From a virus, in the IMG/VR virus record IMGVR_UViG_3300048904_000313, positions 73,468 to 107,550 of that record: a stretch of DNA of 34,083 bases. One strand, 5' to 3'. Below the pieces are notes generated by a model. It saw nothing but the letters and a program-made list of their open reading frames with translations. It ran no database searches and had not been told where the DNA came from. Position 1 is the first letter of the stretch. The number at the start of each line of letters is the position of its first letter. The position numbers and the translations under genes are program-made. Shown one piece after another: positions 11,163-16,391 of the stretch.

Positions 11163-11664
11163 GGGCCCTCGCCCACTCTCGCACCCTGTCCAGGTGACTC
11201 GGCGTGAGTCCCTGGAATGGCGCCACGAGGACGAGCAGGAAGTTCTCCACGCCGTTCTCGCTGAGCCACTTGCCGTCGTGCTCCACGCGCAGCTCATCGT
11301 CGAGCCACGCGAACGGCCGGCCAGCGGCGTAGTCGGCGAGGTCCCGCGTCTTCCAGTGCACGCCTGGCCCAGGCGTGCCGCTCTCGAACCTCACGAACGG
11401 CAACTGCGGCAGTCCCACGTGTGGAGCGACCCACTCGTTCGCCTCGTGCTCCCAGGCGGTCCCCCAGACGAGCTCAACTGGCAGGTCGAGAAGCTGCTCG
11501 CCGTGAGCCGGGTTGAGCCAGATCCTGAGGGGCTTGACCCTGGGGTTGGCCCAGCCTGAGGGGCGTGTGCGGTGCGTCGTGAACCCCGCAGGGCGCCGCC
11601 CGGAGGTGACGGGCGCGGGGTTGAGGACGCCATCGATGTCCAGGAACAGCAGCGGCTTGGTCAT
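11140..11664 (-). CDS. HAD domain protein, Swiss-Army-knife RNA-repair type
   Basis: ATG 11664; LFLDIDGVLNP, VWGTAWEHEAN, WKT, FAWLDDE. Confidence 0.8.
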   Translation of the reverse strand: MTKPLLFLDIDGVLNPAPVTSGRRPAGFTTHRTRPSGWANPRVKPLRIWLNPAHGEQLLDLPVELVWGTAWEHEANEWVAPHVGLPQLPFVRFESGTPGPGVHWKTRDLADYAAGRPFAWLDDELRVEHDGKWLSENGVENFLLVLVAPFQGLTPSHLDRVREWARALDDGRLS

Positions 11665-12962
11665 GCAGCCTCCATGGTGACTTCGGCACCACCTTGACGG
11701 GTGCCCCAACCGTTGTCTCGCAGGGTCAGCAACGCGTAGACACGGATCCACATCAGCAGACCCACGTGAAGCAGTCCGTAGAGTGGAGCCAAGAGGAACG
11801 TGGCGATCCGTTCACCCATGGGCATCCTCGTACGCTGCCCTGGCTCCAGGAACCGAACGGAGCGAGCGTAGCCCAGAAGCATGGCGTACATCAGGTAGAG
11901 CGACCACGTGTTCACGTCTGCCTTGAACGGCGCCATCACGAGAGCGATCAACAACATCGAGGTGAAGGTGAGCCAGCTGGTGAGCTCGATCAATGAGAGC
12001 CAGAAGGCTGGCCGCTGAGCGCGACCAGTCTGGATGACCCAAAGAGACTCACGGAAGAAGCTCTTGGACCACCGCGTCTGCTGCTTGAGATAGTGCTTCA
12101 GCCGCTCCGGCACGAGAGTCCACGCTACGGCTGACGACTGCATGACCACCTGACCGTTCTTCAGGCAGTAGTTCGTGAGTCGTCGATCGTCACCGTACGT
12201 CGCCTCTCGTCCGAGGAACGTCTGACTGAGGAAGTCGTCGAGATTCTCTCGCACCACGCTGCCGCGGTAGAACGCCAGACTGCCACAGCAACACAGCACA
12301 GACTTAAGAAGACCGTACGCCGCACGCTCGAACAGGAACGCGTTGGCGTAGCGGAGGTCGATGAGCCTGGTGAGCACGTTCTTGCGAGCGTTGAGCGCCA
12401 GCACGAGACCGGTGACAGCGTTGACTCGCCGCGAGGCGAACGGCAGCATGCCCTCGTAGACGGCTTCCACGTCGAGCTCCGTGTCAGAATCCACGCCCAG
12501 GTAGACGTCAGCCTTGAAGAACTGACGAATGCCGGCCGCCAACCCGTGGCGCTTGCCTCGATTGAGCTCGAAGGCAATGACGCGGTAGTCGACACCCATG
12601 GCGCGGAACACCGGCTCGTACTCAATCGCGAGGTTGAGAGCCGACTTGTCTGTGGAGCAATCGTCTACCACCGCGATCGCGTTCGGGAGTCGAGTCTGCC
12701 TTCGCAGTGACTCAAGACACTTGCGAAACGCGGTGACATCCTCGTTGTACACCGTCAGCAAGACCGCCACGGTGAGACGAGACACGCGAGCCGCGTCCTT
12801 CTCGTTCACCGTGATCGGCTTGTGAGTCAGCGACGCTGCGAGCTTGAGCAGCAGGAGCGTGAATACCGCGACACCGTACCAGGAGGCGATGTGACCGTGC
12901 TCAGCGTAGATGGCAAGAGCCACAATCACCATCATGGTGATGGCGGAGAAGACCCTGCTCAT
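11661..12962 (-). CDS. Processive GT2 glycosyltransferase, hyaluronan synthase/NodC-like
   Basis: ATG 12962; N-terminal TMs, VDD, GKR, VDSD, CCCGSL, GDDRRLTN, QQTRWSKS (QxxRW), C-terminal TMs and WGTR. Confidence 0.9.
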   Translation of the reverse strand: MSRVFSAITMMVIVALAIYAEHGHIASWYGVAVFTLLLLKLAASLTHKPITVNEKDAARVSRLTVAVLLTVYNEDVTAFRKCLESLRRQTRLPNAIAVVDDCSTDKSALNLAIEYEPVFRAMGVDYRVIAFELNRGKRHGLAAGIRQFFKADVYLGVDSDTELDVEAVYEGMLPFASRRVNAVTGLVLALNARKNVLTRLIDLRYANAFLFERAAYGLLKSVLCCCGSLAFYRGSVVRENLDDFLSQTFLGREATYGDDRRLTNYCLKNGQVVMQSSAVAWTLVPERLKHYLKQQTRWSKSFFRESLWVIQTGRAQRPAFWLSLIELTSWLTFTSMLLIALVMAPFKADVNTWSLYLMYAMLLGYARSVRFLEPGQRTRMPMGERIATFLLAPLYGLLHVGLLMWIRVYALLTLRDNGWGTRQGGAEVTMEAA

Positions 12963-13111
12963 CGCTGGCGCCTGGCATAGAAGCGCGTCCCGACGAGACC
13001 GGCTCCCACGAGAACGAAGCAGCCGGCGACGACCCACCAGGGCATCACGAGGCTTCCCACGACGAGAGCACCGGTACCGGTGGCGGCCAGGGTGCCGTGT
13101 CCGTATGGCAT
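12959..13111 (-). CDS. 50-aa peptide with LAxTG motif, TM helix and basic tail
   Basis: MPYGHGTLAATGTGALVVGSLVMPWWVVAGCFVLVGAGLVGTRFYARRQR; RBS GAAGGGA; its stop overlaps the GT2 start (ATGA). Confidence 0.65.
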   Translation of the reverse strand: MPYGHGTLAATGTGALVVGSLVMPWWVVAGCFVLVGAGLVGTRFYARRQR

Positions 13112-13183
13112 TGAGAGTTCCCTTCACACAGGCCAGGCTTCCGTATCTCTTCCGGTTCCTGGCGCTTCCTTCATGATAGACCC

Positions 13184-15668: not shown

Positions 15669-15771
15669 GATGGCAACCAGGCAGTCGCGCTTCCCCTCAG
15701 GGGCCGACTCCCCCTCCGCACGTACGACCCGCCACAGTCGCAAGAGGTTGTCGGCTGACTACCTGGCCATC
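15669..15771 (-). ncRNA. Unidentified long-hairpin RNA between tRNA-Arg and tRNA-Ala
   Basis: Ends pair as GATGGC-CAGGTAGTC with GACTGCCTG-GTT-GCCATC; inner GCCGAC/GTCGGC and CGAC/GTCG helices. Confidence 0.45.
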
Positions 15772-15780
15772 AGTGTAACG

Positions 15781-15853
15781 TGGACCCAGCAGGATTTGAA
15801 CCTGCGACCTCCGCATCCGTAGTACGGCGCTCTATCCGCTGAGCTATGAGTCC
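15781..15853 (-). tRNA. tRNA-Arg(ACG)
   Basis: GGACTCA/TGGGTCC-A, CT-ACG-GA loop. Confidence 0.9.
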
Positions 15854-15987
15854 TGGCGGGTGACACCCTCCTCACCTTGAGGGCGCCACCCTTATGAGTG
15901 GTAATGCCGATCTTACCCGTACACAGTCGCTGCTGGTCTTAGTTTAACACCATGCGCCGTTGCCGTTACGACCACCGAGTCTCGAAG

Positions 15988-16390
15988 TGACCCGGAGGGG
16001 ACTCGAACCCCTATCTCTCGGTGATGGATCCAGTGCAGTCGATTACGGGATCATCGGTGGTGCTTCAAGCTGGAGCGAGAACTTGAGCCTGACGCTCGCC
16101 GCTGCCTCTGCCAGTTGGGCTACCGGGGCTCGTGGTGCCCCGGGGAGGTCTCGAACCTCCACTGTCACGGTGAGAGCTGAGCTTAAGCCTGAGCTTCAGC
16201 TTTACCAGGAGGGCCTCCTGGCATCCGGTCGCTCAACCGGTAACCTACCCATACACACCGCCTTTGGGTGGCATGGGCAGGAGTCTAGGGGTGTTGCCGC
16301 CCGCGCGTCTCTGCCTTCTTGACTGGAAGGCGTACGCCAGCCGTCTTTCAGGCGGGGGCCGGCCGGCGGAGCCAGCGCGGGCGGCGGCTC
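15988..16390 (-). ncRNA. Large structured RNA with tRNA-like (Leu-type D arm) modules lacking an anticodon loop
   Basis: Three hairpins, then T arm GGAGG-TTCGAGA-CCTCC plus CCGGGGC-ACCA, then GCCCCGG-TA-GCCCAACTGGCAGAGGC, a ~90-nt insert, and a second T arm AGGGG-TTCGAGT-CCCCT plus CCGGGTC-A. Confidence 0.7.
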
Positions 16391-16391
16391 A

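What the first reader, a model, noticed from the sequence alone, without database searches (positions are those of the whole stretch)
16043..16202. Startless alternating polar/hydrophobic codon runs inside the tRNA-like RNA (tmRNA-like tag frames?)
Seen: each 3' half is preceded by a hexamer-periodic tract. 16202-16176 reads AAG CTG AAG CTC AGG CTT AAG CTC AGC (KLKLRLKLS). 16096-16043 reads AGC GTC AGG CTC AAG TTC TCG CTC CAG CTT GAA GCA CCA CCG ATG ATC CCG TAA (SVRLKFSLQLEAPPMIP*), with the stop inside a GATG-ATCC/GGAT-C-CATC hairpin. I see no RBS or standard start codon for either, and the Leu codons vary synonymously (CTG/CTC/CTT). Inference 1: an mRNA-like domain that appends an amphipathic beta-strand tag by a trans-translation-like route. 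Inference 2: the hexamers (GCT-GAA, GCT-CAG, GCT-TAA, GCT-CAA, GCT-CCA) are tandem anticodon-loop mimics or repeated binding sites for an oligomer of the 244-aa protein.
Basis: partly seen in the sequence, partly recalled or inferred. Interest (0 to 1): 0.8.

Follow-up and report, generated by a model that had tools for sequence, protein, structure and literature searches.

The report
Six-base repeats form an RNA stem
The two "codon-like" six-base repeat tracts are not hidden peptide tags; they are the two strands of one mismatch-studded RNA stem that carries a tRNA look-alike, inside a widespread and apparently undescribed non-coding RNA that travels with an unknown protein (DUF7873).

Summary
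The quoted letters are exact and the six-base periodicity is real. Tract 1 is the only run of three or more A-R-N-Y-U-N hexamers in the 34-kb window, and the pattern is conserved in relatives.

The tracts are not tag frames. They are the 5' and 3' strands of one imperfect helix of about 27 bp. That helix takes the place of the anticodon arm of a back-to-front tRNA look-alike (T arm, loop-capped acceptor stem, D arm). This is the first of two heads of a non-coding RNA that follows the DUF7873 gene in most of about 160 fetched phage and bacterial loci.

- **For a helix:** cognate tracts pair better than swapped ones (P 5e-9), pairing is register-specific (68% against 39% or less when slid), and compensatory changes occur.
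- **Against coding:**
  - Stops are scattered 2 to 113 codons from a fixed anchor.
  - The hexamer register shifts by one base across a 7-nt box in 84 of 84 relatives.
  - 1-nt indels occur, including in the closest relative.
  - G3:U70 occurs in only 1 of 88, the phage has no SmpB, and no tmRNA is called.

This scan met the RNA-DUF7873 family before on other DNA, including its "six-letter track". Whether the stem is a docking track for DUF7873, a predicted homodimer, is untested.

The parts
16392..17126 (-).
   Evidence: Pfam PF25283, E 7.8e-83, full length. 421 or more relatives found.
16205..16221 (-). 7-bp hairpin (CCAGGAG / CUCCUGG, 3-nt loop) just 5' of tract 1
   Evidence: Sequence; present in the folds. 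A hairpin stands at this place in most relatives.
16167..16202 (-). Tract 1, the 5' strand of the rod: hexamers AAGCUG, AAGCUC, AGGCUU, AAGCUC, AGCUCU, then CACCGU, the inner (anticodon-stem-like) part
   Evidence: Only hexamer run in the window. Pairs with 16067-16102 in the unconstrained fold of 16058-16206 and.
16161..16166 (-). Variable-loop-like linker GACAGU
   Evidence: CAGU is conserved before the T arm in relatives.
16144..16160 (-). T arm of tRNA-like head 1 (GGAGG / UUCGAGA / CCUCC)
   Evidence: Rfam YrlA alignment. T stem 99.8% paired with compensatory changes in 87 RNAs.
16123..16143 (-). Acceptor stem closed by a 7-nt loop (CCGGGGC / ACCACGA / GCCCCGG)
   Evidence: 7 of 7 pairs in 86 of 88 relatives. 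98.5% paired with heavy covariation. CCGGGGC/GCCCCGG here against CCCGAGC/GCUCGGG in L002.
16103..16122 (-). UA plus D arm (GCCC / AACUGGCAGA / GGC) plus A
   Evidence: D stem 98.7% paired. The sequence is nearly invariant in the family.
16067..16102 (-). Rod part of tract 2, the 3' strand of the rod: GCGG, CGAGCGUC, AGGCUC, AAGUUC, UCGCUC, CAGCUU
   Evidence: Pairs with 16167-16202. Cognate-versus-swapped test; pair counts.
16072..16078 (-). Box UCGCUC(C), a 7-nt unit that breaks the hexamer register by +1; the best-conserved stretch of tract 2
   Evidence: offset of 1 in 84 of 84.
16056..16066 (-). Unpaired linker GAAGCACCACC between the rod and the next hairpin.
   Evidence: Folds. A 1-nt deletion lies here in the closest relative L002.
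16023..16055 (-). Hairpin between the two heads.
   Evidence: AUCRA is found 34-35 nt after the box in 81 of 88 relatives. The two letters before it are GG in 53, AG in 12, UA in 5 and UG in 4.
15956..16012 (-). tRNA-like head 2: T arm 15996-16012; capped acceptor stem 15975-15995 (CCGGGUC / ACUUCGA / GACUCGG); UG plus D arm 15956-15974
   Evidence: Rfam YrlA/tRNA/mascRNA sub-threshold matches. Model R1 scores 34.1 bits at 15943-16023. Compensatory changes against L002 and L003.
15854..15955 (-). 3' part of the RNA up to tRNA-Arg; ends in a G+C-rich hairpin without a U tract
   Evidence: conserved in L002. No terminator-like site found. tRNA-Arg lies at 15780-15853.
18948..20744 (-). Ro60/Rsr-like gene (TROVE + VWA); context only, not part of the element

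Best explanation
The two tracts are the opposite strands of one long, imperfect RNA helix (a 'rod'), not reading frames. The rod stands where the anticodon arm would be in a circularly permuted tRNA look-alike (T arm, loop-capped acceptor stem, D arm). That look-alike is head 1 of a two-headed non-coding RNA encoded directly after the DUF7873 gene. Each strand is built from A-R-N-Y-U-N hexamers. In the commonest family register, Y4-U5-N6-A1-R2 of one strand pairs with the same five letters of the other, and the N3 letters face each other as single mismatches. This gives 5-bp blocks punctuated every six bases, interrupted by an internal loop that holds the box UCGCUC(C). Because the repeats are near-palindromic the register can slip. 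In this window AAGCUG (16202-16197) pairs with CAGCUU (16072-16067), and about 27 pairs follow inward to CCGU/GCGG. Shown here: the periodicity, its conservation, the complementarity and co-variation of the two tracts, and the lack of coding signal. Inferred: the rod is the protein-binding platform of the particle, most likely for DUF7873, in the way the stem of a Y RNA holds Ro60 while the tRNA-like head engages other factors.
For: Anatomy:
- The unconstrained fold of 16058-16206 gives rod plus T arm plus acceptor hairpin plus D arm, at -61.6 kcal/mol against -53.2 for shuffles (5 of 200 shuffles as good). The same rod appears.

Family:
- In most of the 160 loci fetched through DUF7873 (80 viral, 80 bacterial), T loops stand about 60-240 and about 150 nt further downstream of the stop, preceded by AAGYT repeats.
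- Model R1 finds the full 146-position module after the gene in most viral loci, including many not in its seed.

Pairing:
- Co-folding gain of cognate tract pairs is -9.8 kcal/mol against -6.4 for tracts swapped between divergent members. The cognate pair was better in 56 of 68, Wilcoxon P 4.8e-9.
- With inner stems included, the gain is -15.0 against -8.7 swapped and -5.7 shuffled.
- Register S_A on an unfitted MAFFT alignment of 61 RNAs gives 68.1% of cells paired, against 26-39% when slid by 1-3 columns. On 25 RNAs it gives 77.6% against 15-42%.
- On the model-fitted alignment of 87 distinct viral RNAs, the rod helices are 71-74% paired with many pair types. For example, the N6:N6' pair is GC 23, CG 11, UA 6, AU 3, UG 3, GU 2.
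- N3:N3' is unpaired in 45 of 60 and 53 of 61 RNAs.

Window against its closest relative L002:
- The letter changes inside the rod keep or improve pairing: C-G to U.G, A x C to A-U, and U.G to U-A.

Specificity:
- This is the only hexamer run in the window.
- The Ro60-proximal Y RNA-like units have no such run and do not match R1 at E 0.001 or better.

Partner:
- A DUF7873 homodimer model scored 0.68, with the best of 3 controls at 0.00. That mark was reached by 20 of 30 proteins solved as pairs of one chain and by 1 of 23 solved as single chains.
- The runs agree in at least 98% of contacts, and the partner's pLDDT is at least 87.
- This supports dimerisation only. It says nothing about RNA binding.
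Against: - The pairing register is not the same in all lineages. This window and L002 fit register S_B better than the family's S_A, so many S_A pairs are non-standard here.
- One Streptomyces subgroup replaces the fourth hexamer by GUCGUG.
- Column-wise covariation on unfitted alignments is modest. For cells changed on both sides, the observed count was 61 against 42 expected.
- RNAalifold on MAFFT alignments did not recover the rod.
- Near-palindromic repeats would give some pairing potential whatever their purpose.
- In two distant one-headed variants (L003, L006) the fold of the repeat region is no better than shuffles.
- There is no transcript, probing or binding datum.
Confidence: 0.8

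Rival explanations
1. tmRNA-like tagging: the tracts are start-less reading frames that a stalled ribosome resumes on, after the permuted tRNA-like head is cut open and charged. This would append amphipathic K/L-type peptides.
For: - The gene order (T arm, 3' acceptor strand, ACCA, short loop, 5' acceptor strand) looks like a permuted two-piece tmRNA gene.
- Hexamer positions 3 and 6 are the most variable. In tract 1 and the first half of tract 2, codon position 3 therefore has the highest entropy: 0.57/0.80/1.38 and 0.63/0.61/1.13 for positions 1/2/3.
- The frame is open by construction, since ARN and YUN are never stops.
Against: - ARAGORN calls no tmRNA, and Rfam's tmRNA models give only a 17-bit T-arm match.
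- After the 7-nt box the hexamer register shifts by +1 in 84 of 84 relatives, so in any fixed frame the variable letter moves to codon position 1 (entropy 1.46/0.61/0.86).
Seven relatives have UAG two codons after the anchor.
- The window's UAA is only one variant of the two letters before the conserved motif AUCGAC; these are GG in 53 of 81.
- The closest relative has a 1-nt deletion inside the 'ORF' and ends ..EARR instead of ..EAPPMIP.
- +1 unit insertions occur inside tract 1 in several lineages, for example L009, L014, L028 and L105.
- G3:U70 occurs in 1 of 88 and NCCA in 29 of 88. The acceptor loop is 4-83 nt, and a normal D stem is present.
- The phage has no SmpB.
- The tracts pair with each other.
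Confidence: 0.02
2. Single-stranded periodic binding sites: the hexamers are not paired in the working particle. They are read one by one by an oligomeric RNA-binding protein (DUF7873 or another). TRAP reads spaced triplets in this way (recalled from knowledge, not tested).
For: - A1 and U5 are the best conserved letters of every repeat, at 88-95% in 67 divergent viral RNAs.
- The middle letters of the hexamer after the box vary freely with no clear partner.
- The register of pairing is not fixed across lineages.
- The hexamer track always travels with DUF7873.
- DUF7873 is predicted to self-associate: score 0.68, best of 3 controls 0.00. That mark was reached by 20 of 30 proteins solved as pairs of one chain and by 1 of 23 solved as single chains. 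Runs agree in at least 98% of contacts, and the partner's pLDDT is at least 87.
Against: - Cognate tracts are more complementary than swapped ones.
- Left-strand repeats end in G and right-strand repeats in C, and these letters covary.
- The two strands always flank the tRNA-like head, as a closing stem would.
- The letter changes inside the rod between the window and L002 all preserve pairing.
Confidence: 0.1
3. An ordinary Ro60-bound Y RNA: the rod is the Ro60/Rsr-binding stem of one more YrlA-type RNA belonging to the phage's Ro60 gene 2.5 kb upstream.
For: - Ro60-like gene at 18948-20744 on the same strand.
- Rfam YrlA matches the whole module at 25.2 bits, E 0.004, covering the full model.
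- The plan is the same: a stem plus a permuted tRNA-like head.
Against: - The score is far below YrlA's gathering cut-off of 69, and the stem part aligns with many non-standard pairs.
- The Ro-contact motif of Chen et al. 2014 (PMC4201824), GNCGAAN0-1G, is absent here and present in only 11 of 88 relatives.
- 3 of 5 bacterial genomes that carry the DUF7873-RNA pair have no TROVE protein. A Streptomyces locus has none within 10 kb.
- The phage's Ro60-proximal units have different stems, with no hexamers and no R1 match.
Confidence: 0.06

Closest known systems
YrlA-type bacterial and phage Y RNAs with Ro60/Rsr (Rfam RF02553; Chen et al. 2014, PMC4201824)
   Same: A non-coding RNA in which a stem formed by the 5' and 3' flanks carries a tRNA-like module in the order T arm, loop-capped acceptor stem, D arm. 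It is encoded next to its presumed protein partner, and is found in phages among tRNA genes.
   Different: Scores 25 bits against a cut-off of 69. It has two heads in one RNA. The stem is a hexamer-periodic, mismatch-punctuated rod with a UCGCUC(C) box, in place of the Ro-contact motif GNCGAAN0-1G. The constant neighbour is DUF7873, not a TROVE protein, and the pair occurs in genomes without any TROVE gene.
Two-piece (circularly permuted) tmRNA
   Same: In the gene, the T arm and 3' acceptor strand (here even followed by ACCA) come before the 5' acceptor strand. An open frame follows the tRNA-like part.
   Different: No G3:U70, a normal D stem, no pseudoknots called, no conserved resume codon, tag or stop, and no SmpB in the phage. 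The 'frame' is one strand of a helix.
DUF7873-associated two-headed tRNA-mimic RNA
   Same: Same gene neighbour, same two permuted tRNA-like heads about 148 nt apart, same hexamer track, UCGCUC box and AUCGAC motif. The window is a typical member.
   Different: This copy has a longer 5' leader (about 190 nt after the stop codon), five hexamers in tract 1, and a pairing register shifted by one repeat relative to most members. It lies between DUF7873 and a tRNA array, with a Ro60 system nearby.
Periodic protein-binding RNA tracks such as the (G/U)AG repeats bound by TRAP (recalled from knowledge, not tested here)
   Same: Short sequence units repeated with a fixed period of 5-6 nt and with variable spacer letters.
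   Different: Those repeats are single-stranded and wrap around a ring. Here the repeats of two strands face each other in a duplex, and no binding protein has been shown.

Membership tests
tmRNA (one-piece or permuted two-piece) | Recognised by tmRNA finders or covariance models | tested here: not met
   ARAGORN finds no tmRNA in the window. Rfam gives only cyano_tmRNA at 17.4 bits on the T arm of head 2, against a cut-off of 70.
tmRNA (one-piece or permuted two-piece) | Alanine identity: G3:U70 in the acceptor stem and a free CCA end | tested here: not met
   3:70 is C-G here, and G:U occurs in 1 of 88 relatives. NCCA follows the stem in 29 of 88. The stem is closed by a loop of 4-83 nt. Whether the loop is cut in vivo could not be tested.
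tmRNA (one-piece or permuted two-piece) | Conserved tag reading frame with a conserved stop | tested here: not met
   Stops lie 2-113 codons after the anchor. The register shifts by +1 in 84 of 84. A frameshift is present in the closest relative.
tmRNA (one-piece or permuted two-piece) | SmpB partner | tested here: not met
   No PF01668 match in the 107.5-kb phage record; the control genomes matched in 10 of 14. A host SmpB cannot be excluded.
YrlA / bacterial Y RNA | tRNA-like module in the order T arm, capped acceptor stem, D arm, closed by a stem of the flanks | tested here: met
YrlA / bacterial Y RNA | Reaches the Rfam RF02553 gathering score | tested here: not met
   25.2 bits against 69 here; relatives score 24-40 bits.
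YrlA / bacterial Y RNA | Ro-contact motif GNCGAAN0-1G in the 5' strand of the stem (PMC4201824) | tested here: not met
   Absent from 15854-16391; present in 11 of 88 relatives.
YrlA / bacterial Y RNA | Linked to a Ro60/TROVE gene | tested here: inconclusive
   A TROVE+VWA gene lies 2.5 kb upstream here. However, 3 of 5 genomes with the DUF7873-RNA pair lack TROVE, and there is none within 10 kb in L167.
YrlA / bacterial Y RNA | Bound by Ro60/Rsr | not testable with these tools
   Needs co-purification.
DUF7873-associated two-headed tRNA-mimic RNA (scan-defined) | Lies directly downstream of a DUF7873 gene on the same strand | tested here: met
   Gene at 16392-17126, RNA at 15854-16391. The same order is seen in the fetched loci.
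DUF7873-associated two-headed tRNA-mimic RNA (scan-defined) | Two permuted tRNA-like heads about 145-155 nt apart | tested here: met
   T loops are 148 nt apart; both heads are matched by R1.
DUF7873-associated two-headed tRNA-mimic RNA (scan-defined) | Hexamer tracts on both sides of head 1, the UCGCUC(C) box and the AUCGAC motif | tested here: met
DUF7873-associated two-headed tRNA-mimic RNA (scan-defined) | Matches a covariance model of the family | tested here: inconclusive
   103.4 bits, E 1e-19, but the window was in the model's seed. Its relative L007 (the same contig as L002) and many non-seed loci score 50-101 bits.

The most novel reading that the evidence does not exclude
The hexamer-periodic, mismatch-punctuated duplex is a molecular ruler. 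It would be a row of pseudo-two-fold 5-bp sites, spaced every 6 bp, on which symmetric DUF7873 dimers dock. The result would be a Ro60-independent particle that presents two tRNA-shaped heads at fixed positions. In this phage it would work beside, and apart from, a Ro60/Y-RNA system.
Probability: 0.3. Interest if true: 0.75.

Novelty: new variant of a known kind. Interest (0 to 1): 0.5.

Why it matters
The result removes an attractive but wrong reading, a second phage-borne tagging RNA. It also shows why the tracts look like codons: a six-base structural repeat whose two free positions happen to fall on 'wobble' places.

Positively, it defines the stem of a widespread RNA that I could not find in Rfam 15 or in the searchable literature. 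That RNA always travels with DUF7873, in hundreds of Streptomyces and other bacterial genomes and in many phages.

One phage here carries both Ro60-type Y RNA-like units and this RNA. Both share tRNA-like heads but have quite different stems. This suggests that the stem specifies the protein partner and the head specifies the shared target. That idea can be tested directly by pull-downs and compensatory mutations.

Tried and rejected
- **RNAalifold on MAFFT alignments.** It recovered the T and acceptor stems but not the rod, because the inner stem is misaligned by indels. I therefore used anchored tracts, named structures and a covariance model.
- **DUF7873 fold.** The model has pLDDT 90.8. 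Foldseek against the PDB gave nothing at E 0.001 or better. The best VIA-wide match was 3kdq, a protein of unknown function (Z 9.3, rmsd 7.7, 147 aligned). The rest were helical hairpins at Z 8 or below. No function can be read from this.
- **Promoter and terminator scan of 15700-17300.** None found, so the transcription unit is undefined. Co-transcription with DUF7873 and the tRNA array is possible.
- **A box-to-leader pairing.** I considered pairing of UCGCUCC with a GGAGCG just 5' of tract 1, as in many Streptomyces copies. I rejected it as a general feature because it is absent here and in several lineages.
- **One-headed distant variants (L003, L006).** Both tracts lie side by side before the head, but their folds are no better than shuffles, so they neither help nor hurt.
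- **Burroughs and Aravind 2016.** An earlier check of this scan named it as nearest in print, but it is not held and I could not verify it.
- **Literature.** No paper holds 'DUF7873'.
- **Phage collection.** A blastn search with the RNA found only a 63-nt T-arm-like match.

Full report
**1. The observation**

TAA lies at 16045-16043, inside the loop of a hairpin formed by 16055-16048 and 16031-16023.

The six-base periodicity is not a trick of the eye. With the strict pattern A-R-N-Y-T-N, 16179-16202 is the only run of three or more hexamers anywhere in the 34-kb window, on either strand. Thirty shuffled windows gave none.

Tract 2 is less regular. It has two strict hexamers (16090-16079), then UCGCUC plus one extra C (16078-16072), then two more hexamers displaced by one base.

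**2. What surrounds the tracts**

The stretch 15854-16391 is non-coding. It lies between a DUF7873 gene (16392-17126; Pfam E 7.8e-83) and a tRNA array.

Between the two tracts lie, in order:
- a T arm (16144-16160);
- a 7-bp acceptor stem closed by the loop ACCACGA (16123-16143);
- UA and a D arm (16104-16122).

This is a tRNA body in permuted order. Rfam's YrlA (Y RNA-like) model aligns to 16074-16191 over its whole length, but at 25.2 bits against a cut-off of 69. A second permuted head lies at 15956-16012.

ARAGORN calls no tmRNA, and no tmRNA model of Rfam matches beyond a T arm. A Ro60-like gene (TROVE + VWA) lies at 18948-20744.

**3. Relatives**

Protein search found 421 or more DUF7873 proteins. 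Through an alignment of 37 of them I fetched 80 viral and 80 bacterial loci. The bacterial ones are mostly Streptomyces and Streptosporangiales chromosomes, and more than 560 genome stretches matched.

In most of the loci the gene is followed by AAGYT repeats, a T loop and a second T loop about 150 nt later.

The closest relative (L002; protein 62% identical) has an RNA that is far better conserved than the protein. It shows compensatory changes in both acceptor stems.

A covariance model of head 1 with its flanks (R1) finds the full module after the gene in most viral loci, including many outside its seed. It scores 103 bits here. It does not match the Ro60-proximal Y RNA-like units of this phage at E 0.001 or better.

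The pair is independent of Ro60. Three of five bacterial genomes that carry it have no TROVE protein. In a complete Streptomyces chromosome, DUF7873 stands alone before about 1.5 kb without called genes.

No paper in the library holds 'DUF7873'. Rfam offers only sub-threshold YrlA hits.

Earlier notes of this scan describe the same RNA-protein pair on other DNA, with 110 notes in 62 or more genomes. One of them (e1-5633710) mentions a 'track of six-letter repeats' and rejects a tmRNA reading. I treated these as leads and tested the points below myself.

**4. The tracts are the two strands of a helix**

Folding:
- The unconstrained fold of 16058-16206 pairs tract 1 with tract 2 into a rod of about 27 pairs. 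The rod carries the three tRNA-like arms.
- The energy is -61.6 kcal/mol against -53.2 for shuffles, and 5 of 200 shuffles fold as well.
- When the tRNA-like body is replaced by a linker, 88 relatives fold into the same kind of rod.

Co-evolution of the two tracts:
- Co-folding a tract 1 with its own tract 2 gains 9.8 kcal/mol. With the tract 2 of a divergent relative it gains 6.4. The cognate pair is better in 56 of 68 cases (P 4.8e-9).

Named structures on unfitted MAFFT alignments:
- The commonest register (S_A) has 77.6% of cells paired in 25 RNAs and 68.1% in 61 RNAs.
- After sliding by one to three columns these fall to 15-42% and 26-39%.
- A second register (S_B), shifted by one repeat, reaches 58.5%. 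It is the one this window and L002 use.

On the model-fitted alignment of 87 distinct viral RNAs, the rod helices are 71-74% paired with many pair types.

The repeat explains itself in this light:
- Y4, U5, N6, A1 and R2 of one strand pair with the same letters of the other.
- Left-strand repeats end mostly in G and right-strand repeats mostly in C.
- N3 faces N3 and is usually a mismatch.
- A1 and U5 are 88-95% conserved in 67 divergent viral RNAs.

Between the window and L002, the letter changes inside the rod keep or improve pairing.

**5. Why they are not reading frames**

- **The frame is open trivially.** ARN and YUN cannot be stops.
- **The wobble-like variation follows the hexamer, not a frame.** Codon-position entropies are 0.57/0.80/1.38 in tract 1 and 0.63/0.61/1.13 before the box. 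After the box they are 1.46/0.61/0.86, because the 7-nt unit UCGCUCC shifts the repeat by +1. This shift occurs in 84 of 84 relatives.
- **Stops are not conserved.** Seven relatives have UAG two codons after the anchor.
- **The window's UAA is incidental.** It is one variant of the two letters before the conserved motif AUCGAC. Those letters are GG in 53 of 81, AG in 12, UA in 5 and UG in 4.
- **The closest relative is frameshifted.** It has a 1-nt deletion in the supposed tail and would end ..EARR rather than ..EAPPMIP.
- **Register-breaking insertions occur in tract 1.** Several lineages carry a 7-nt unit there, after which the repeat resumes in the new register.
- **The head is not tmRNA-like.** 3:70 is C-G here, and G:U occurs in 1 of 88. 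NCCA follows the stem in only 29 of 88. The capping loop ranges from 4 to 83 nt, and the D stem is normal.
- **The phage has no SmpB**.

**6. How it most likely works**

Shown: an RNA with two tRNA-shaped heads, the first mounted on a periodic, mismatch-punctuated rod, always encoded after DUF7873.

Inferred, by analogy with Y RNAs, whose stem binds Ro60 while the tRNA-like module engages other factors (PMC4201824): the rod with its UCGCUC box is the platform for the constant neighbour, DUF7873.

Two observations fit this but do not prove it:
- In this one phage, the Ro60-linked units and the DUF7873-linked RNA share tRNA-like heads but differ in their stems.
- DUF7873 is predicted to form a symmetric, intertwined homodimer. 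The score is 0.68, and the best of 3 controls is 0.00. That mark was reached by 20 of 30 proteins solved as pairs of one chain and by 1 of 23 solved as single chains. The runs agree in at least 98% of contacts, and the partner's pLDDT is at least 87. A symmetric dimer would suit the pseudo-two-fold 5-bp blocks of the rod.

The protein's fold gave no functional clue.

**7. Verdict**

The tag reading is rejected, and the 'binding track' reading remains open in a double-stranded form.

The element is a typical member of an apparently undescribed, Ro60-independent relative of Y RNAs that this scan has met repeatedly.

Noticed in passing
window 20650-22300 (-): Upstream of the Ro60-like gene, between four tRNAs, Rfam gives sub-threshold YrlA matches at 21355-21421 (28.8 bits), 21510-21569 (44.1) and 21961-22143 (24.2). 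It also gives an 18-bit 'tmRNA_permuted' match at 21685-21721. None of these units has hexamer runs or matches model R1.
   Followed up: partly
window 16130-16136 (-), and relatives: The loop that caps the acceptor stem of head 1 starts with ACCA (discriminator plus CCA) here and in 26 of 88 relatives; NCCA occurs in 29 of 88. The first letter is A in 77 of 88. Loop length ranges from 4 to 83 nt. This is either a relic of tRNA descent or a hint that some copies are cut open.
   Followed up: partly
window 16072-16078 (-): UCGCUC(C) is the best conserved stretch of the rod region. It sits opposite the third hexamer as an asymmetric internal loop (6 x 7 nt) in the commonest register. It is a likely recognition element.
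   Followed up: partly
window 16036-16042 (-), and relatives: The motif AUCGAC (AUCRA in 81 of 88) lies at a fixed distance of 34-35 nt after the box, in the loop of the hairpin between the two heads. Its role is unknown.
   Followed up: no
L006:1700-1795 (-) and L003:3760-3860 (+): Distant DUF7873 loci (36-37% identity) have a one-headed RNA. In it, both hexamer tracts and the UCGCUCC box lie side by side in front of the tRNA-like head instead of flanking it.
   Followed up: partly
L088, L100, L111, L118, L125, L146, L148, L157, L166 (about 334 nt after the DUF7873 stop): One Streptomyces subgroup has a third GTTCRA T-loop-like motif 37 nt after the second.
   Followed up: no
window 16392-17126 (-): DUF7873 is predicted to be a symmetric, heavily intertwined homodimer, with about 240 contacts in each of three runs.
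   Followed up: partly
window 11661-13127 (-): A 488-aa family-2 glycosyltransferase (Glyco_trans_2_3 / Glycos_transf_2) lies in the phage, upstream of the tRNA array.
   Followed up: no
window 15700-17300: No sigma-70-like promoter or intrinsic terminator was found around the RNA. It may be co-transcribed with DUF7873 and processed out together with the downstream tRNAs.
   Followed up: partly
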